Source of the DNA: a virus | Lineage: Duplodnaviria > Heunggongvirae > Uroviricota > Caudoviricetes | IMG/VR virus record: IMGVR_UViG_3300039384_000072 | Strand: one strand, 5' to 3' | Length of the DNA: 8,326 nt | In this document: in pieces, positions 1,734-8,326 of the stretch | Layout: each line of letters begins with the position of its first letter | Position numbering within the stretch: the first letter of the stretch is position 1 | The notes under the pieces: generated by a model | What the model was told of the DNA's origin: nothing | The model's database searches: none | Seen by the model: only the letters and a program-made list of their open reading frames with translations | Program-made: the position numbers and the translations under genes

Positions 1734-3197
1734 ATGCCAAAGTTAAGAATATATTTTTCAGATTTTTTTAATGTATCTCCTGAAAAAATAAAAGAGTATG
1801 GTGCATTTAATATTTCTCTGATTAATGATTTGCCGCTATTTATTGATCCGTTTTTGTTATTTAATAATGAGAAATATATAGATTTACATCAGGGGATAAT
1901 TAAATATGTTTCTTTCTTAAGAGATCGTTCTCAGAATGGAGAATTAAATCGAGGTTTAATCAAAAGTTGGTTTTTATTTCCTGAGGTAAAACAAAACTGG
2001 CTGGGTTATAGCATGGTTGGGAACGGTGGGAGTGGATTGGGTATTGATTTTGCAAATTCCTTAATCACCTCATTTTCAAGTATTTTAAAAAACTTTGGTA
2101 AAGAGGAAATTACTGAGGGAAGTCATCTTGAAAAATTGTGTTTGATTAAGGAGGGGGTAGGAAAGGATAGTATTAGTGATTTTACCACTAATTTAATTAA
2201 ATCGTTTTTACTGAAGTATACTGAAGATTTCTCTAAAGAAAATATAGATAGTAAATATCTCTCTGAACACTTAGTACCAAAAGTTGAATTTAATTACGAA
2301 ACCAGAAGTTGGATGAGTAAAAAATTCACGTTGCCAACATATGCTGGAGATTATGTTCTTTTAACTCCGAGAGATATACTCACAAAAGATGAAACTTGGA
2401 TTAACAGAAATGAAATGATCGAGGACTTTAGAGATATATGTGAAAGTATCCCTAATGATCAATTGCGTGGACAATTGTCTGATTATTTCAATAGATGTCT
2501 CCCAGACTCTCCAAAGAAAAAGGAACGAGAGTCCGCTGCCGATTTGACAATTAAGAATTACCCGAGTTTTATTGATTATTATATTCGTTATAAAGAACAA
2601 AACTCTGGGGGTGCTAAACGTGATAGTAATGCAAAGGTTAGCGAAACTGAGCAAAGGTATATTGAAGCTGTCCAACTTTTGGTTGATACAATCTTTAATA
2701 AACATCAGGAGTTCTTTAGTTCAAAGGATGATACTTTCGAAGAGGCCTATAAGCGAGTCTGTTATCTTAAACAGGTAATAGAAAATAATGATGGCTATAA
2801 AGTATTCTATTTGAATGGTGTCCCAATTAAGCGTGAAGCTGATTTGCAGTTAATGTTTAGATTAACATGGTTTGCTAGTATTTCTGATGTCAATAGTGAA
2901 GTAAATAATGGTCGTGGTCCCGTTGACTACAAAATATCGAGAGGTTCGAAAGATAAAACATTGGTTGAATTCAAACTGGCTAGTAACTCCAAGCTTAAAC
3001 AGAATCTGGCAAATCAGGTTAAAGTGTATGAGGCGGCAAATGAAACAAAAAAATCAATAAAGGTTATTTTGTATTTTACTGATCGAGAATTGTCTGGATT
3101 GTTTAAGACTTTCAAAGAACTTGGGATTAAAGAAGGTAAGGATTTAGTCTTGATTGATGCTAGGCCTAATAAGGTTTCTGCATCGAATGTCAAATAA
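1734..3197 (+). CDS. Hypothetical 487-aa protein with a C-terminal PD-(D/E)xK / RecB-like nuclease signature; candidate single-gene anti-phage defence protein
   Basis: Strong RBS AGGAGG (1723-1728) 5 nt before ATG 1734; long uninterrupted ORF. By eye it is markedly AT-rich compared with flanking genes. C-terminal motifs read from the translation: acidic residue in READ, then GRGPVD (D398), VEFK (E412, K414), then QVKVY (Q428...Y432), the order and spacing expected for RecB/Cas4-like PD-(D/E)xK nucleases. The N-terminal ~380 aa have no motif I can assign. Followed by a hairpin plus T-run. Confidence 0.8.
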   Translation: MPKLRIYFSDFFNVSPEKIKEYGAFNISLINDLPLFIDPFLLFNNEKYIDLHQGIIKYVSFLRDRSQNGELNRGLIKSWFLFPEVKQNWLGYSMVGNGGSGLGIDFANSLITSFSSILKNFGKEEITEGSHLEKLCLIKEGVGKDSISDFTTNLIKSFLLKYTEDFSKENIDSKYLSEHLVPKVEFNYETRSWMSKKFTLPTYAGDYVLLTPRDILTKDETWINRNEMIEDFRDICESIPNDQLRGQLSDYFNRCLPDSPKKKERESAADLTIKNYPSFIDYYIRYKEQNSGGAKRDSNAKVSETEQRYIEAVQLLVDTIFNKHQEFFSSKDDTFEEAYKRVCYLKQVIENNDGYKVFYLNGVPIKREADLQLMFRLTWFASISDVNSEVNNGRGPVDYKISRGSKDKTLVEFKLASNSKLKQNLANQVKVYEAANETKKSIKVILYFTDRELSGLFKTFKELGIKEGKDLVLIDARPNKVSASNVK

Positions 3198-3245: not shown

Positions 3246-3379
3246 AATCTTCTTTTATTATGGTAACGACACTTTAGATGTATAGGGCAGTATTCATTTT
3301 AATAAACAGTTTTGCACATGAGCGTGATGGTATTAAGTATTTGTGAACTTTATTAAGTATGTAACAAGGTCTGCGCGCA

Positions 3380-3398
3380 GTGCTTTCCCCGCCTCGCC
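3380..3398. other. cos: cos site: P2/P4-type 19-nt cohesive-end sequence (reverse complement of GGCGAGGCGGGGAAAGCAC)
   Basis: Read directly: gtgctttccccgcctcgcc at 3380-3398 is the exact reverse complement of the P2/P4 cohesive-end 19-mer as I remember it. It is followed by a GC-rich hairpin (cccgcccgctttgcggggcgg) and lies between the variable region and psu, where cos sits in P4. Confidence 0.8.
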
Positions 3399-3500
3399 CG
3401 CCCGCTTTGCGGGGCGGTTTTAATGCAGTTGCACTGACACGCTCAGGCCGCGCCGGGAATGGCGCGGTTTGCAGAAAATGAGGCAGGAAAACGCATGCAA

Positions 3501-3532
3501 AGCCATGCACCTTATCGATGCATGGCTTTTTT
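3501..3532 (+). terminator. Hairpin with T-run (terminator-like) between cos and the psu 3' end
   Basis: Stem agccatgca (3501-3509) pairs with tgcatggct (3519-3527), followed by a T-run (3527-3532). Orientation and function are uncertain; it could be part of the cos-flanking recognition region. Confidence 0.4.
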
Positions 3533-3562
3533 CAGTAAAAACGGGCGGATTTTCGGGGAGTT

Positions 3563-4135
3563 TTACACAGACTGATGTGATACCAGTTGCGCACTTTTAC
3601 GCGAAAAAATCATGTTCTGCGCAGGGGTGAATTTTTCACGGCTGTCATCCACCGAAGCCGCGTCAGGCCTGAATCCGATGGTCGTTAAAATGTCGCTATC
3701 CTGTGCGGAATAATTAATTTTTTCCCCCTTCGCAAGCCAGGACAGAAGGGCTTCACGCAGGGCATCTGTGGCACGCTGTATGGCACAGTTTCGGGCAATG
3801 GCCGTCAGCTCACTGTAGCCCATCAGCTCCGGTGCCAGTGCGGCCGCCAGTGCTGTGCCGTGCTGCTGCATAAAATCATTCAGCCGGTCGCGGATGCTGA
3901 TGTGCTGAACGGCTTCATGCGAACGAATATAACGACCGGCAGCCTGATTCACCTGCCATTTTCTGACTTCGATAATATTGCGTAATTCGTCCAGGCGACT
4001 GACGTTTCTGCCTTCCCCGGACAGAAGCCGCAGATATTCCTGTTCGGCCGCAGCCAGCTCATTTTTGCGTTGCAGCCATGCTGCTTTGTTATTCTGACAG
4101 GTGTCAAAGGCCTGCTGTAAGGCTGTGCTTTCCAT
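3563..4135 (-). CDS. psu: Psu (polarity suppression protein / capsid-decoration protein), 190 aa
   Basis: ORF track 3563..4135 minus, 190 aa, beginning MESTALQQAFDTCQ. Length and N-terminus match my memory of P4 Psu. Position is last gene of the sid-delta-psu operon, next to cos. Confidence 0.85.
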   Translation of the reverse strand: MESTALQQAFDTCQNNKAAWLQRKNELAAAEQEYLRLLSGEGRNVSRLDELRNIIEVRKWQVNQAAGRYIRSHEAVQHISIRDRLNDFMQQHGTALAAALAPELMGYSELTAIARNCAIQRATDALREALLSWLAKGEKINYSAQDSDILTTIGFRPDAASVDDSREKFTPAQNMIFSRKSAQLVSHQSV

Positions 4136-4208
4136 CGTTATCTCTTTCTCATCATGCTGAAGAATAAAAATACGGTGTGCGGCGACGGCCGGTGTTAACC
4201 GGCAGCCT

Positions 4209-4709
4209 TCATTCCAGACGCAGCGAATATGATTGTGTTTTTAACCGTACTGGCGGCAGTTCCTGTTTTTCATGCAGGCGTTCTGCCAGTTCGTCCGGTG
4301 TGACCGGGCGGACAATGAAGCGGTTGATGGTCTGAAGCGTTTTAAACACCAGACCACAGCCCGGCTCCGTGCACACATAAAAACGTTCGGTGACTTCCTG
4401 AGACAGACGCCGCGATGTTCTTGACAGTGCAAGGCCTTTACATCTCCGACAACAATATCCGGTAACAAGCATTCTTTTCGGGCGTTTCATACTGCCGGAG
4501 GCAGAAGTCAGTGAATCGCGGTATCTCTGTTTGCCTGAAATGTATTCCATTCCTGAATCTTTACAGTCAGAGAAAAAGCTTTCACTCGCTTCAAATGTCG
4601 CAGAGCAATAAATATTCCGGCACTGTGCAATCATTATCTTGGTGCCATCGTCCATGAAATGTGCGCGACGGGTGTGAGCAACATGTCCACACGACGGGCA
4701 GTAAATCAT
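4209..4709 (-). CDS. delta: Delta late-gene transcriptional activator (tandem Ogr-like zinc-finger protein), 166 aa
   Basis: Two Ogr-type Cys clusters in one polypeptide (CPSCGH...C...YC and CCRRC...CTEPGC), which is the known duplicated-Ogr architecture of P4 delta. The start codon overlaps the sid stop (ATGA at 4706-4709 on the minus strand). Confidence 0.85.
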   Translation of the reverse strand: MIYCPSCGHVAHTRRAHFMDDGTKIMIAQCRNIYCSATFEASESFFSDCKDSGMEYISGKQRYRDSLTSASGSMKRPKRMLVTGYCCRRCKGLALSRTSRRLSQEVTERFYVCTEPGCGLVFKTLQTINRFIVRPVTPDELAERLHEKQELPPVRLKTQSYSLRLE

Positions 4710-5440
4710 GACAGCAGTCCTCTGGCCTTAAGCTCTGCTCCCTGCTGGTCTATTTTGTCCTGCCACACCTTGCGCTGTGCCGGTGTGCCTGCCACCTCAT
4801 AATCCATGTGCGGGAGTGTTGCCGCTGACAGTCCGGTCAGCCGGAGAACCGGCTCACCGCTGAGGCTGATTTGCATCTGTTTTATTTTCTGTTCCAGCGA
4901 TGATTTCACCTGCTGCATGACAGCCTTTTCCGGTGCGATGTAGCCCTGATGGCCGGTGGTGTTGGCGAGCGGATTTTCCTGTACCAGGATGCTCAGATGC
5001 ATTGCCCGGACAAGCGCCTCACAGGTTTCATTCAGGGCGTGTTCCAGCTCATGCTCTGCATACAGACTCAGAAGGTGATGATGTGCCTTCCGGTAGGCGG
5101 TGGCCGTGCTGTCACACGCCCCTTTCAGGCGTTCGCGTTCAAAATTCAGCACCACGGCCAGATTGTCATATTCCTGTACCAGCTCCCGGCGTGCCACGCG
5201 CTCAATGTGGCGCTGTTTCAGCTCATCGCTCAGGACACCACCGGCTGCACGAAAGGCCGTGCGCCAGTCGTCAGCGTCGTTTCCGTCGGCCTGCGCCAGC
5301 GCATTTTTTTCCTGCTCTGCCCGTTCAATGGCCGTGACGGTCTCATCCATCAGGCGGGCGTTCTCAAGATGGGCGGCTCTGGCCTTTTCCAGTTGTGCCA
5401 GCGCGGGTTGCAGATATTCAGGGATGGTGTTGTCAGACAT
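4706..5440 (-). CDS. sid: Sid (external scaffold / capsid size determination protein), 244 aa from the second in-frame ATG
   Basis: The ORF track gives 250 aa from ATG 5458. The in-frame ATG at 5440 (MSDNTIPEYL...) has a GAGGAA Shine-Dalgarno about 8 nt upstream and gives 244 aa, matching my memory of P4 Sid. The protein is alpha-helical and Ala/Glu/Leu-rich, as expected for a scaffold. Confidence 0.8.
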   Translation of the reverse strand: MSDNTIPEYLQPALAQLEKARAAHLENARLMDETVTAIERAEQEKNALAQADGNDADDWRTAFRAAGGVLSDELKQRHIERVARRELVQEYDNLAVVLNFERERLKGACDSTATAYRKAHHHLLSLYAEHELEHALNETCEALVRAMHLSILVQENPLANTTGHQGYIAPEKAVMQQVKSSLEQKIKQMQISLSGEPVLRLTGLSAATLPHMDYEVAGTPAQRKVWQDKIDQQGAELKARGLLS

Positions 5441-5474
5441 TTTCCGGTTCCTCGTCACTTCAGGTTAAGAAAAT

Positions 5475-5492
5475 TGTGACGTACACCGGACA
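5475..5492. promoter_or_regulatory. TGT-N12-ACA dyad (Ogr/delta-type activator site), promoter-proximal site of Psid
   Basis: Read directly: TGT (5475-5477), 12 nt, ACA (5490-5492). It lies 38 bp from the dyad at 5513-5530, consistent with -55 and about -17 sites upstream of sid. Confidence 0.5.
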
Positions 5493-5512
5493 ACAACACG
5501 ACGCATTGCAGA

Positions 5513-5530
5513 TGTGCCAGCCCTGACACA
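5513..5530. promoter_or_regulatory. TGT-N12-ACA dyad (Ogr/delta-type activator site), candidate -55 site of the late promoter Psid
   Basis: Read directly: TGT (5513-5515), 12 nt, ACA (5528-5530), about 80 bp upstream of the sid start codon on the minus strand. P2/P4 late promoters are known to be activated through TGT-N12-ACA sites centred near -55. Confidence 0.55.
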
Positions 5531-5612
5531 GGAGACTCATCCTCAGACCGGCAAGCCAGGAAAAGGTCGCAGGAAAAACCGGCTTACTGTTTGTTTTTTT
5601 TTATATTTTACT

Positions 5613-5715
5613 GTTCACCTCTGTTCACAATAAGAAAAAAGATAAGTAATACAGTAAGTTAAAGGGTGAACAATCGCAGTAATGACTGTTCACCGTCTGT
5701 TCACCACTGTTCACC
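5613..5715. repeat. crr: Iteron cluster: six copies of the octamer TGTTCACC (five direct, one inverted), candidate alpha-binding cis replication region (crr)
   Basis: Read directly: TGTTCACC at 5613-5620, 5688-5695, 5698-5705 and 5708-5715; variant TGTTCACA at 5623-5630; inverted GGTGAACA at 5665-5672. TGTTCACC is, from memory, the P4 alpha-protein binding octamer found in ori and crr. Confidence 0.6.
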
Positions 5716-5873
5716 CGTTGATGGGCTTTTTGTGCTGTTTATTACTTTTTATTTTTATTAATTCACTGAAATAAATAAGAAAAAACAATTTGTATTTCAC
5801 TATAATTTTTTCCAGCTCCTTCCAGAGCGTTTTAAAGCTATCTGGCGCTGATGTACAAAAAATGCACAGCCAT

Positions 5874-5891
5874 TGTAAGGCTGCCGGAACA
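5874..5891. promoter_or_regulatory. TGT-N12-ACA dyad, candidate -55 activator site of the late leftward-type promoter (PLL analogue) driving vis
   Basis: Read directly: TGT (5874-5876), 12 nt, ACA (5889-5891). A site centred here places a transcription start near 5937, about 57 nt upstream of the vis ATG at 5994. Confidence 0.5.
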
Positions 5892-5993
5892 AATCCCCCC
5901 TGTTGCGTCTGCCGAAAATATTCACAAAATAAAGCGCTACCCGAAGCCGGACGGACTTATCCGGTGCTGTATGGACATTAACGAGGTAGCCCG

Positions 5994-6260
5994 ATGCAAG
6001 CTGTTTTTTCTTCCCCGTCTCCCGCCCCTGTGACGCCACTGATGCCGCTGCCGGACATCACACAGGAGCGTTTTTTACGTCTTCCGGAAGTGATGCACCT
6101 GTGCGGCCTGTCACGCTCGACCATCTACGAACTCATCCGTAAGGGGGAATTTCCGCCGCAGGTGAGTCTTGGCGGTAAAAATGTGGCCTGGCTGCACTCT
6201 GAAGTCACCGCATGGATGGCCGGCCGCATTGCCGGACGCAAACGGGGGTACGACGCATGA
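5994..6260 (+). CDS. vis: Vis/AlpA-family small DNA-binding protein (excision/regulatory), 88 aa
   Basis: RBS GAGGT (5983-5987) 6 nt before ATG 5994. The C-terminal half [44 protein letters not shown] is the AlpA/Vis-type helix-turn-helix signature. The 88-aa length matches my memory of P4 Vis. Confidence 0.75.
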
Positions 6261-6295
6261 TGATGCCTGTTCTGCAAAAAGTCCCTTTTTCTGGC

Positions 6296-6325
6296 TTGCC
6301 TTTTTCCGGCATTTGCGGATATAGT
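6296..6325 (+). promoter_or_regulatory. Candidate early/immunity promoter (PLE analogue): -35 TTGCCT (6296-6301), 18-bp spacer, -10 TATAGT (6320-6325)
   Basis: Read directly; lies just downstream of vis and upstream of the structured leader region. Confidence 0.35.
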
Positions 6326-6356
6326 TTTTCCGCTGTCGCAAAATCGGCAGCCGGGC

Positions 6357-6647
6357 GTGGAAACCCGAGCAATCTAACGGCGACATATGACGCGCCATGC
6401 GTCTTTTTTTGTGTCGCAATCAACGCCACAGAGCGCCAGATTATGGTGTGGTGTGTGGTCAGTCGAGCAGATGGAACTCCGTGCATCCTGCCCGCGTCCG
6501 CTCATTATGCCGCAGAGTCAATGGTAGCTCAGGCGGGGCAGCCTCCGGGCTGGCCGGTATCCGTTAGAGCCGGTATTTCCACCCCCGTCTGGGCTATCGC
6601 CATCGAGCGTGGAAACTCCGGCGATAGCGTAACCTGCTATCTAACGG
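6357..6647 (+). ncRNA. Candidate P4-type RNA immunity region: transcribed leader with seqA-like (6357-6380), seqB-like (6561-6582) and seqC-like (6609-6647) elements
   Basis: Read directly: GTGGAAAC...ATCTAACGG occurs at 6357-6380 and again at 6609-6647. The element CCGTTAGA...TTTCCAC at 6561-6582 is complementary to both ends of each copy. Additional local hairpins, e.g. gctatcgcc (6593-6601) pairing with ggcgatagc (6620-6628). The precise RNA ends cannot be determined from sequence. Confidence 0.35.
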
Positions 6648-6658
6648 AGGCTGCCATC

Positions 6659-6856
6659 ATGGCTACAACCCTTACCCCTTCACACCCTGAATTTGTCTTT
6701 GTGTTTGCGGCTGTCCGTCGCGCAGACCGTCATCCCCGTATCTGCATGCTTCGCACCGTCGCCGGTGATGAACGCAGTGCCCGCCGTTCCCTTGTCCGTG
6801 ACTATGTGCTCTCCCTTGCTGCCCGTCTGCCGGTGGTGGAGGTGTCCCGTGCGTAA
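6659..6856 (+). CDS. Small protein, 65 aa, possibly Icd-like host cell division inhibitor / Ash-region protein of P4-like elements
   Basis: RBS GGAGG (6646-6650) 8 nt before ATG 6659. The frame is open from 6212, so in-frame ATGs at 6521 and 6443 are possible alternative starts. Family assignment rests on position within the immunity region and a vague sequence recollection, so it is uncertain. Confidence 0.45.
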
Positions 6857-7136
6857 TAAAAAAGCCCCTCAGACCGTCTCAGCGCGTCATGACGCCCGTG
6901 AACACCTCAGCATTGAGGCTTACCATAAGCTCAACCGCGCCAGCGCCGTATCCCAGTTTGTTGGGGGTGATTTGATTCACCGTGAACTCTCCGGCCTGCA
7001 TCAGCTCTACATTCCGCATATTTTCAGCTACCTGAATGAAGATATTGATTTTGTGCTGAATGAGCTGAAAGCCAAAGGCCTGTGCCGCGATTTTCTCGCC
7101 CAGCAGAAAGACCGGGGAGACAAGACGCATGTTTGA
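6849..7136 (+). CDS. Hypothetical small protein, about 95 aa, at the position of P4 epsilon (helper derepression protein)
   Basis: The ORF track's 6693..7136 frame has no ATG beyond 6693, and that ATG overlaps the preceding gene. GTG 6849 is preceded by GGAGG (6838-6842) with a 6-nt spacer. The 3' end overlaps the next ORF (ATG 7129, stop 7134-7136), suggesting translational coupling. The epsilon assignment is positional only. Confidence 0.5.
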
Positions 7137-7584
7137 TTTTCCCCAGCCCGGTGAGATTTACCGTTCTGCCGGTTTTCCCGATGTGGCCGTGGTCGGCATT
7201 CTGGAAGACGGTATTCCGTGGGAAATGCCGTACCGCTGCCCGGACATTGTCTGGAACCCGTACCGCCGTAAATTCAGTATCCTTGTGCGTATCCTCGCTG
7301 ACGGGCGCACCACAGACATCCCGCTGGGGCGTTTTCTGCGGGAATTTACCTGTGACCGTCCTGACCTGTTTAAACGCAGCCCCGTAAACCGGCATGCGGT
7401 ACTGAAAGAAATGGCCGGAGACCCGGAATTACAGAAATGGCGGGAGAAATATCTGGATATTTACCCGCAGGCCCCTGTTCCGGTCAGCCGGGCGGCACCG
7501 GTGGCGCGGGAATGGCGGGAAATTCCCCGCACGGAGCCTGACCCGGAAATCACCCCGGATAACAGTTACCGCAATTATCTGTAA
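7129..7584 (+). CDS. Hypothetical protein, 151 aa; same size and position as P4 orf151 upstream of alpha
   Basis: ORF track 7129..7584, 151 aa; purine-rich GGGGAG about 9 nt upstream; coupled to the upstream ORF. Protein-like composition. Function unknown. Confidence 0.7.
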   Translation: MFDFPQPGEIYRSAGFPDVAVVGILEDGIPWEMPYRCPDIVWNPYRRKFSILVRILADGRTTDIPLGRFLREFTCDRPDLFKRSPVNRHAVLKEMAGDPELQKWREKYLDIYPQAPVPVSRAAPVAREWREIPRTEPDPEITPDNSYRNYL

Positions 7585-7719
7585 TTAAAAAACGACACCC
7601 GAAAAATTAAATGTGCGTATTCGCGCAGGGATACGCACGTCTTCAGGAGACGCAGATATGCCTTATCAGTTAATGCAACCGGCACGGAATGCAGTCATCT
7701 GTCACAGGGAGGAAAACAA

Positions 7720-8040
7720 ATGAAAACACCCTTACCGCCCGTCTTACGTGCTGCCCTTTACCGTCGCGCTGTCGCCTGTGCCTGGCTGACCGTGTGCGAA
7801 CGTCAGCACCGCTACCCGCATCTCACCCTTGAGTCACTGGAGGCGGCCATCGCCGCTGAGCTGGAAGGCTTTTATCTGCGCCAGCACGGTGAGGAAAAAG
7901 GGCGTCAGATAGCCTGTGCCCTGCTGGAAGATTTAATGGAATCCGGCCCCCTGAAGGCCGCGCCGTCGCTGTCCTTTCTCGGGCTGGTTGTGATGGATGA
8001 ACTCTGTGCCCGTCACATAAAAGCGCCGGTACTGCACTGA
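7720..8040 (+). CDS. Hypothetical protein, 106 aa, immediately upstream of the primase gene
   Basis: RBS GGGAGG (7707-7712) 7 nt before ATG 7720. Ends 14 nt before the primase start, consistent with one operon. Confidence 0.65.
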
Positions 8041-8054
8041 AGGAGAACAACACC

Positions 8055-8326
8055 ATGAAAATGAACGTAACCGCCACCGTCAGCCATGCGCTCGGCCACT
8101 GGCCGCGTATTCTCCCGGCGCTGGGGATTCAGGTGCTGAAAAACCGTCATCAGCCCTGTCCGGTCTGTGGCGGGAGTGACCGCTTCCGTTTTGATGACAG
8201 GGAGGGGCGCGGCACCTGGTACTGCAATCAGTGTGGTGCCGGTGACGGCCTGAAACTGGTTGGAAAGGTGTTTGGTGTCTCTCCGTCCGACGCGGCCGCA
8301 AAGGTGGCTGCCGTGACCGGCAGCCT
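8055..8326 (+). CDS. alpha: Alpha-type primase/helicase, N-terminal fragment (primase zinc-ribbon domain); 3' end outside the window
   Basis: RBS AAGGAG (8040-8045) 9 nt before ATG 8055; open to the window end. Translation MKMNVTATVSHALGHWPRILPALGIQVLKNRHQPCPVCGGSDRFRFDDREGRGTWYCNQCGAGDGLKLV contains the CxxC...CxxC zinc-ribbon typical of P4 alpha / T7 gp4-type primases. Not in the ORF track because there is no stop in the window. Confidence 0.8.
   Translation, partial: MKMNVTATVSHALGHWPRILPALGIQVLKNRHQPCPVCGGSDRFRFDDREGRGTWYCNQCGAGDGLKLVGKVFGVSPSDAAAKVAAVTGS

What the first reader, a model, noticed from the sequence alone, without database searches (positions are those of the whole stretch)
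5475..5891. Three perfect TGT-N12-ACA dyads within ~420 bp of the divergent sid and vis promoter region
A perfect TGT-N12-ACA occurs about once per 4 kb by chance, so three in about 420 bp is highly non-random. Two (5513-5530 and 5475-5492) lie upstream of sid, 38 bp apart, consistent with activator sites at about -55 and about -17; I recall P4 late promoters having a second delta site near -18, unverified. The third (5874-5891) is positioned to serve a promoter for vis. This fits delta, encoded two genes downstream of sid, autoactivating the late operon and activating the leftward vis operon.
Basis: partly seen in the sequence, partly recalled or inferred. Interest (0 to 1): 0.45.

Follow-up and report, generated by a model that had tools for sequence, protein, structure and literature searches.

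The report
Known P4 satellite late-promoter activator sites
The three dyads are the already characterised binding sites for the delta/Ogr late-gene activator at the two late promoters (Psid and PLL) of a phage-P4-type satellite prophage in E. coli, so the finding is correct but ordinary.

Summary
The window is a P4-type satellite prophage at tRNA-Leu in E. coli. From psu to cnr it is 97% identical to phage P4.

**Observation.** The three perfect TGT-N12-ACA dyads are at the stated coordinates. It is made by two replication-origin iterons and is not perfect in P4.

**Match to P4.** All three dyads sit at the same positions in P4. The two sid-side dyads are base-for-base identical. The vis-side dyad keeps its arms but has three spacer changes.

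**Wider comparison (166 related loci).**
- The distal sid dyad is perfect in 165, including satellites whose Sid is only about 60% identical. Its spacers vary and its distance to the -10 element is fixed.
- The proximal dyad is perfect only in the P4 clade. Elsewhere it is TGT-N12-AGA, with its right arm inside the -10 hexamer.
- The vis-side dyad is N12 only in the P4 clade. Elsewhere it is N11/N13, as at P2 PV.

**Geometry.** Predicted positions are -55.5 and -17.5 at Psid and about -54.5 at PLL. They match the activator-site-to-start distances annotated in phage P2.

**Verdict.** Novelty: already known. Interest: low.

The parts
5513..5530 (-). Distal Psid dyad. Reads TGTGTCAGGGCTGGCACA on the sid strand; centre about -55.5 from the predicted start. 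Activator (delta/Ogr) site.
   Evidence: Perfect match and identical in P4. Perfect in 165 of 166 related loci, with variable spacers and conserved arms TGTG(C/T)CA...TG(C/G)CACA. The left arm TGTGTCAG is identical to the annotated P2 PO/PP activator site and occupies the same -64..-47 register.
5475..5492 (-). Proximal Psid dyad. Reads TGTCCGGTGTACGTCACA on the sid strand; centre about -17.5. Its right arm ACA lies inside the -10 hexamer. Probable second delta site.
   Evidence: Perfect match and identical in P4. The 18-mer is invariant in 126 of 126 P4-clade loci. It is TGT-N12-AGA in 39 of 39 diverged-clade loci, always 38 bp from the distal dyad.
5473..5478 (-). Predicted Psid -10 hexamer CACAAT (CAGAAT in the diverged clade). 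The implied start is near 5466, 26 nt before the sid ATG at 5440.
   Evidence: Read from the sequence. There are no indels between the distal dyad and this hexamer in 20 aligned loci. The start site is inferred, not mapped.
5874..5891 (+). PLL dyad TGTAAGGCTGCCGGAACA. Centre is 111.5 nt upstream of the vis ATG, about -54.5 from the predicted start. Activator site for the vis-side late promoter.
   Evidence: Perfect match. P4 has TGTAAGACAGCCTGAACA at the same position. In the P4 clade the arms TGTAAG/GAACA are kept across at least 8 spacer variants. The diverged clade has a dyad with N11/N13 spacing at the same place.
5902..5930 (+). Predicted PLL core: conserved TGTTGC block (5902-5907) and -10-like CAAAAT (5925-5930). 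The implied start is near 5937.
   Evidence: The block from TGTTGC to CACAAAATA is conserved across clades. No sigma-70 consensus promoter was found anywhere in 5400-6050, as expected for activator-dependent promoters. The start site is inferred.
4209..4709 (-). delta: two-finger Ogr/Delta activator, second gene of the sid-delta-psu operon. The protein proposed to bind the dyads.
   Evidence: Pfam PF04606 with two stretches. Matches P4 delta at 162 of 166 residues; both CX2CX22CX4C motifs are intact.
4706..5440 (-). sid, first gene transcribed from Psid.
   Evidence: 241 of 244 residues identical to P4 Sid. Annotated as 'capsid size-determining scaffold Sid' in the identical genome record.
3563..4135 (-). 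psu, third gene of the operon.
   Evidence: Pfam PF07455, E 2e-88. 187 of 190 residues identical to P4 Psu.
5994..6260 (+). vis (AlpA-family excisionase and regulator), first gene downstream of PLL.
   Evidence: Pfam PF05930. 98.9% identical to P4 ORF88.
5612..5715 (.). P4-type replication origin: six type-1 iterons TGTTCAC(C/A) at 5612, 5622, 5666 (minus strand), 5687, 5698 and 5708. The first two make the fourth perfect TGT-N12-ACA. Not part of the delta system.
   Evidence: 7 TGTTCAC matches in the window against 1 expected, 6 of them here. The P4 record annotates the same positions as ori type-1 repeats.
5805..5856 (.). Variable cassette just upstream of the PLL dyad. In P4 this position holds three tandem cox-boxes, the P2 Cox binding region. 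The window carries a different allele.
   Evidence: It is the only strongly diverged stretch in the alignment with P4. Cox-box scan. Two alleles exist across E. coli genomes. Cox binding upstream of PLL: PMC3936717.

Best explanation
The window is a P4-type satellite prophage. The sid-vis spacer holds P4's two divergent, activator-dependent late promoters on either side of the replication origin.

Proposed mechanism: a zinc-finger activator of the Ogr/Delta family binds the dyad centred about 55 bp upstream of each start. The activator can be delta from the satellite or Ogr from a P2-type helper. From there it recruits RNA polymerase through the alpha subunit to promoters that lack a usable -35 element.

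- At Psid this drives sid-delta-psu. Because delta lies in that operon, expression reinforces itself.
- At PLL it drives vis and the genes behind it.
- The second sid-side dyad, centred at -17.5 and overlapping the -10 hexamer, is most likely an additional delta site peculiar to the P4 clade.

Shown here: sequence identity with P4, the geometry, the presence of the activator gene, and deep conservation of the distal dyad.

Inferred or taken from the literature: the start sites, actual binding, and the alpha-subunit contact.
For: - Window 3399-8326 is 97.2% identical to P4. The promoter spacer is 92.5% identical, and both sid-side dyads are unchanged.
- P4 has only five perfect dyads in 11.6 kb, and three of them are these.
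- The distal Psid dyad is perfect in 165 of 166 loci, including 39 of 40 with Sid about 57-66% identical. Spacers vary and the distance to the -10 element is fixed.
- The PLL arms are kept across at least 8 spacer variants.
- Within the P4 clade, 1 of 18 half-site positions varies against 148 of 553 in the spacer overall, p = 0.026.
- The geometry equals that of P2's annotated activator sites and starts, 55-58 bp.
- delta is intact.
- No sigma-70 consensus promoter lies in the spacer.
- Literature: Ogr binds inverted repeats near -55 and needs the RNA polymerase alpha subunit (PMC3152322). TGT-N12-ACA is the P2 late-promoter consensus (PMC3931495).
Against: - No start site, binding or expression data exist for this element. 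All positions rest on predicted -10 hexamers.
- The primary P4 papers (Julien and Calendar 1995; Van Bokkelen et al. 1991; Reiter et al. 1998) are not held. The footprint data, and especially the -18 site, are from memory.
- The proximal dyad is perfect only in the P4 clade. That perfection depends on one base at the least constrained position of the -10 hexamer (CACAAT against CAGAAT).
- The within-clade constraint test is weak: p = 0.026, or 0.09 when the hypervariable cassette is excluded.
- The perfect pattern is neither necessary nor sufficient in P2.
Confidence: 0.88

Rival explanations
1. The proximal dyad (5475-5492) is not an independent activator site. Its perfect form could be a side effect of a conserved upstream TGT block plus the A-N-A of the -10 hexamer. 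Alternatively it could act negatively, with delta or another protein such as Vis occluding the -10 element at high concentration.
For: The right arm lies inside the -10 hexamer. In 39 of 39 diverged-clade loci the arm is AGA, so those promotors work, if at all, without a perfect dyad. The TGT belongs to a longer conserved block, TCGTGTTGTTGTG, that could have another role. Thirteen loci combine the P4-type promoter with a single-finger 81-aa delta, so the site is not tied to the duplicated delta.
Against: The TGT sits exactly 12 bp from the arm and exactly 38 bp from the distal dyad in all 165 loci, although the intervening spacer diverges. The 18-mer is invariant in 126 P4-clade loci, while the base just outside it (5493) varies. 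My recollection, unverified, is that delta footprints a second site near -18 in P4.
Confidence: 0.25
2. The cluster is chance or hitch-hiking. The dyads would be conserved only because the element diverged from P4 very recently, and would have no function.
For: The window is 97% identical to P4, so identity with P4 alone proves little. At least 3 matches in some 420-bp span arose in 38 of 5000 shuffles. One of the four matches in the interval really is incidental.
Against: The distal dyad stays perfect in satellites with about 60% Sid identity even though its spacer changes. The PLL arms are kept across many spacer variants. Both sit at the helper phage's activator-to-start distance.
Confidence: 0.03
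3. The dyads are upstream activating sequences for the host response regulator QseF (GlrR), whose consensus is also TGT-N12-ACA, driving a sigma-54 promoter.
For: PMC6075780 gives TGTN12ACA as the QseF consensus in E. coli.
Against: No sigma-54-type promoter (TGGCAC-N5-TTGCW, up to 2 mismatches) lies anywhere in 5441-5993. The TGGCAC inside the distal dyad is followed by GC at the wrong spacing and is absent from the diverged clade. The sites travel with a delta gene in every satellite examined.
Confidence: 0.01

Closest known systems
Phage P4 late promoters Psid and PLL (GenBank X51522 positions 9493-9510, 9531-9548 and 9133-9150)
   Same: Same genes, same order and same positions. Both Psid dyads and everything from them to the sid start are identical apart from one base. 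The PLL dyad has the same arms and the same distance to vis.
   Different: Three substitutions in the PLL spacer (GGCTGCCGG against GACAGCCTG). The 50-bp cassette just upstream of the PLL dyad is a different allele and lacks P4's three tandem cox-boxes. One ori iteron ends in A instead of C, which creates an extra incidental dyad.
Phage P2 late promoters PP, PO, PV and PF (Ogr-dependent)
   Same: A dyad centred 55-58 bp upstream of the mapped start and no good -35 element. The left arm TGTGTCAG of Psid is identical to that of PO/PP, in the same register.
   Different: The P2 sites are imperfect (TGT-N12-CCA, TGT-N11-ACA) and single. No P2 site is annotated overlapping the -10 element.
Late promoters of the diverged P4-like satellite clade (Klebsiella, Raoultella, Citrobacter, Enterobacter and others; single-finger delta of 67-87 aa)
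   Same: The same sid-ori-vis layout. A perfect distal Psid dyad at the same distance from the -10 element. A dyad at the PLL position.
   Different: The proximal element is TGT-N12-AGA. The PLL dyad has N11/N13 spacing (TGTTGTGTGG...CACTACA), resembling P2 PV. delta has one finger rather than two.

Membership tests
Ogr/Delta-dependent late promoters of P2/P4 | Inverted repeat of TGT-N12-ACA type centred about 55 bp upstream of the transcription start | tested here: met
   Dyad centres are at -55.5 (Psid) and -54.5 (PLL) relative to starts predicted from the -10 hexamers. P2's annotated sites are at 55-58 bp. The starts themselves are predicted, not mapped.
Ogr/Delta-dependent late promoters of P2/P4 | Recognisable -10 element but no functional -35 consensus, hence dependence on an activator | tested here: met
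   No sigma-70 consensus promoter was found in 5400-6050. CACAAT and CAAAAT hexamers lie at the expected distance.
Ogr/Delta-dependent late promoters of P2/P4 | A cognate C4 zinc-finger activator encoded by the element or its helper | tested here: met
   delta at 4209-4709: PF04606 with two stretches, and 162 of 166 residues identical to P4 delta.
Ogr/Delta-dependent late promoters of P2/P4 | Sequence orthology with an experimentally studied member | tested here: met
   92.5% identity to P4 across the spacer. The Psid dyads are 100% identical and the PLL arms are identical.
Ogr/Delta-dependent late promoters of P2/P4 | Activator binding to the dyad, and transcription that depends on the activator and the RNA polymerase alpha subunit | not testable with these tools
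   Needs a footprint or gel shift and reporter assays. The literature statement for the family is in PMC3152322.
P4-like satellite | Core gene set: int, psu, delta, sid, alpA/vis, epsilon (ash), alpha, in P4 order, integrated at a tRNA gene | tested here: met
   Pfam hits for integrase, Psu, Ogr_Delta, AlpA and Ash. tRNA-Leu(CAA) lies at 80-164. In the 100% identical genome record the primase-helicase (alpha) follows directly after the end of the window. The core set is as defined in PMC8628076.
QseF (GlrR) upstream activating sequences | A sigma-54 promoter downstream of the TGT-N12-ACA sites | tested here: not met
   No TGGCAC-N5-TTGCW match with up to 2 mismatches lies in 5441-5993.

The most novel reading that the evidence does not exclude
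The late-promoter region may be modular. The delta dyads would form a fixed core, and the elements around them would be swapped between lineages.

Two observations fit this reading:
- The 50-bp cassette immediately upstream of the PLL dyad (5805-5856) replaces P4's three tandem cox-boxes with a different repeat pattern: TTCCAG twice at 10-bp spacing, plus an inverted CCAGA. It exists as one of two common alleles in E. coli. It could retarget helper-triggered derepression to the Cox/Apl protein of a different P2-type helper.
- The perfect -17.5 dyad would be a gain specific to the P4 clade that adds a second layer of delta control at Psid.
Probability: 0.2. Interest if true: 0.4.

Novelty: already known. 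Interest (0 to 1): 0.1.

Why it matters
For the finding itself, very little. It re-identifies the activator sites of two promoters that were dissected in phage P4 decades ago, in a prophage 97% identical to P4.

- **Annotation.** The sites are not marked in the P4 or E. coli records, so a scan that finds them from raw sequence is behaving correctly.
- **Comparative result.** The distal Psid dyad is a near-universal, position-locked feature of P4-like satellites. The perfect -17.5 dyad and the N12 spacing at PLL are specific to the P4 clade. This gives a simple rule for locating late promoters in the thousands of unannotated P4-like elements.
- **Possible experiment.** The variable cassette next to the PLL dyad is a candidate determinant of which helper phage can wake the satellite.

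Tried and rejected
- **Primary literature.** I tried PMC177091 (Julien and Calendar 1995), PMC107552 (Reiter et al. 1998), PMC3518693 and PMC4836473; none is held. Full-text searches for Psid, 'sid promoter' and delta binding returned only citing papers. The -18 delta site therefore remains a recollection.
- **Perfect proximal dyad tied to the two-finger delta.** Rejected. Thirteen loci carry the P4-type promoter, with both perfect dyads, ahead of an 81-aa single-finger delta.
- **Second perfect dyad near -18 of PLL.** None found. The P4 clade has only TGC-N11-ACA there, and the diverged clade TGA-N12-ACA.
- **Fourth dyad (5612-5629) as a delta site.** Rejected. It is two ori iterons and is not perfect in P4.
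- **Host QseF sites.** Rejected for lack of a sigma-54 promoter.
- **Record annotation.** The '-10 consensus' and 'dyad symmetry' features in record X02534 do not coincide with the delta sites. They are early sequence-gazing annotations.
- **Within-clade polymorphism as a constraint test.** It gave only weak support, p = 0.026 to 0.09.

Full report
**What the window is**

The window matches an E. coli chromosome (NZ_OZ547117.1) at 100%. Its layout is as follows:

| Feature | Coordinates |
|---|---|
| tRNA-Leu(CAA) | 80-164 |
| Integrase | 316-1584 |
| Cargo gene | 1734-3197 |
| psu | 3563-4135, minus strand |
| delta | 4209-4709, minus strand |
| sid | 4706-5440, minus strand |
| Non-coding spacer | 5441-5993 (553 bp) |
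| vis | 5994-6260, plus strand |

After vis come the P4 immunity and replication genes. From 3399 to the end, the window is 97.2% identical to phage P4 (X51522). Sid matches at 241 of 244 residues, Delta at 162 of 166 and Psu at 187 of 190. So this is a P4-type satellite prophage, and the finding lies in the P4 sid-vis spacer.

**The observation**

It reads TGTTCACCTCTGTTCACA and is simply two adjacent copies of TGTTCAC(C/A). The P4 record annotates these as ori type-1 repeats, and the window has six of them in 5612-5715. In P4 the second copy ends in CC, so there the match is not perfect.

The clustering is real but moderate. At least three matches in some 420-bp span occurred in 38 of 5000 shuffles, and at least four in 2 of 5000.

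The bare pattern is a poor classifier. Phage P2 has five perfect matches where 8.2 are expected, and none is at an annotated activator site. The annotated P2 sites are imperfect: TGT-N12-CCA at PO/PP and PF, and TGT-N11-ACA at PV.

**Identity with P4**

The spacer aligns with P4 end to end at 92.5% identity.

- Both sid-side dyads, and the whole stretch from them to the sid start codon, are identical except for one base in the ribosome-binding region.
- The vis-side dyad keeps its arms (TGTAAG...GAACA) with three spacer substitutions.
- P4 has five perfect dyads in its 11.6-kb genome, and three of them are these.

**Geometry**

On the sid strand, the sequence after the proximal dyad reads ...GTCACAATTTTCTTAACC....

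- *Psid.* The best -10 hexamer is CACAAT (5478-5473). That implies a start near 5466, 26 nt before the sid ATG. The dyad centres then fall at -55.5 and -17.5.
- *PLL.* On the vis side, CAAAAT (5925-5930) implies a start near 5937 and puts the dyad centre at about -54.5.
- *Comparison with P2.* The P2 record annotates activator sites and mapped starts 55-58 bp apart. When aligned on the start, the Psid distal dyad occupies the same -64 to -47 register as the PO/PP site and shares its left arm TGTGTCAG.
- *No consensus promoter.* No sigma-70 consensus promoter is found in the spacer. That fits promoters which need an activator.

The start sites are inferred, not mapped.

**Comparative test**

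I collected 180 further loci encoding Sid relatives from genomes, metagenomes and viral contigs. They fall into two groups with nothing in between. One is a P4 clade with Sid 92-100% identical. The other is a diverged clade with Sid about 57-66% identical, found in Klebsiella, Raoultella, Citrobacter, Enterobacter and others.

Of these loci, 166 have enough sequence upstream of sid.

- *Distal dyad.* It is a perfect TGT-N12-ACA in 165. The exception has N13. There are 15 or more different spacers, and the arms TGTG(C/T)CA...TG(C/G)CACA are conserved. In the 20 promoter regions aligned (window, P4 and 18 other loci) there are no indels between the dyad and the -10 hexamer. This is strong evidence of function.
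- *Proximal dyad.* It is an invariant, perfect 18-mer in all 126 P4-clade loci. It is TGT-N12-AGA in all 39 diverged loci that have a perfect distal dyad. It is always exactly 38 bp from the distal dyad, and its spacers are very different between loci. The right arm is part of the -10 hexamer (CACAAT against CAGAAT). So its perfection depends on a single base at the least constrained position of that hexamer.
- *PLL dyad.* The P4 clade keeps the arms across at least eight spacer variants; three loci have TAT for TGT. The diverged clade has TGTTGTGTGG...CACTACA at the same position, which gives N11/N13 spacing and resembles P2 PV.
- *Within-clade polymorphism.* Inside the P4 clade, one of 18 half-site positions is polymorphic, against 148 of 553 across the spacer. 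This is only weakly significant (p = 0.026).

**The activator**

The window's delta has two Ogr-type fingers, as in P4. The diverged clade has single-finger deltas of 67-87 aa.

I asked whether the perfect proximal dyad goes with the duplicated delta. It does not. Thirteen loci have the P4-type promoter, with both perfect dyads, ahead of an 81-aa single-finger delta.

**Mechanism**

The best-supported account is the established one, given here in outline. Delta, or Ogr from a P2-type helper, binds the -55 dyads and activates Psid and PLL through contact with the RNA polymerase alpha subunit. Because delta sits in the Psid operon, expression is self-reinforcing.

The held literature supports the family-level statements:
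- Ogr binds inverted repeats centred near -55 and needs the alpha subunit (PMC3152322).
- TGT-N12-ACA is the late-promoter consensus (PMC3931495).
- P2 Cox binds upstream of PLL (PMC3936717).

The specific P4 footprints, including a second delta site near -18, are my recollection of Julien and Calendar 1995. That paper is cited in the held papers but cannot be read here. The role of the proximal dyad is the least certain step.

**Rivals**

- *Chance or hitch-hiking.* Excluded for the distal and PLL sites by the deep comparison.
- *Host QseF.* It shares the consensus (PMC6075780), but there is no sigma-54 promoter in the spacer.
- *The proximal dyad as by-product or brake.* It may be a by-product of a conserved TGT block and the -10 hexamer, or a negative site. 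This stays open at about one chance in four.

- delta is the gene directly after sid, not two genes downstream.
- The interval also contains the replication origin.
- There are four perfect dyads in the interval, not three.

**Verdict**

The comparative details are modest additions. Interest is low.

Noticed in passing
window 5805-5856: This is the only strongly diverged stretch of the sid-vis spacer relative to P4. P4 has three tandem cox-boxes here (TTAAAGNCA at 10-bp spacing, annotated as 'ori type 2 repeats'), which is the region where P2 Cox binds. The window has a single box-like match (5832-5840, 8 of 9), plus TTCCAG twice (5810, 5820) and an inverted CCAGA/TCTGG. In complete E. coli genomes, 372 match the window allele at 95% or better and about 600 match at 60-90%, which is the band the P4-type allele would fall in. 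It is possibly a helper-specificity cassette.
   Followed up: partly
It is made by two ori type-1 iterons. A C-to-A difference from P4 makes it perfect.
   Followed up: yes
window 1734-3197: A 487-aa cargo gene sits in the int-psu hotspot in place of P4's gop/beta/cII. It is annotated as DUF8370, has no Pfam hit, and matches the PADLOC candidate defence family PDC-M36A at E 4e-21.
   Followed up: partly
window 3368-3430: The junction of the P4 genome ends falls at 3398/3399. Window 3368-3398 matches P4 bases 31-1, and 3399 onward matches P4 from 11624 downward. The cos site therefore lies here.
   Followed up: no
window 6332-6409 and 6517-6604: Rfam matches to isrK (72.5 bits) and to C4 antisense RNA, the P4 CI immunity RNA (76.2 bits), downstream of vis.
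   Followed up: no
window 5936-5990: In the predicted PLL leader, GCTACC at its 5' end can pair with GGTAGC in the vis Shine-Dalgarno region, with a CCGGA/TCCGG hairpin in between. The pairing segments are invariant in seven diverged leaders, so there is no covariation evidence either way.
   Followed up: partly
window 5866-5884, minus strand: A terminator-like hairpin followed by a T run overlaps the PLL dyad. It is created by the window-type dyad spacer and is absent with P4's spacer. The scan expects about one such hit in this region by chance.
   Followed up: no
loci L025, L028, L030, L046, L057, L060-L062, L070, L071, L074, L161, L178: These are recombinant satellites. Sid and Psid are P4-type (98-99% identical, both dyads perfect), but they are followed by an 81-aa single-finger delta instead of the 166-aa two-finger P4 delta.
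   Followed up: partly
window 7580-7597: A fifth perfect TGT-N12-ACA (TGTAATTAAAAAACGACA) lies at the end of orf151. It is absent from P4 and is probably chance.
   Followed up: partly
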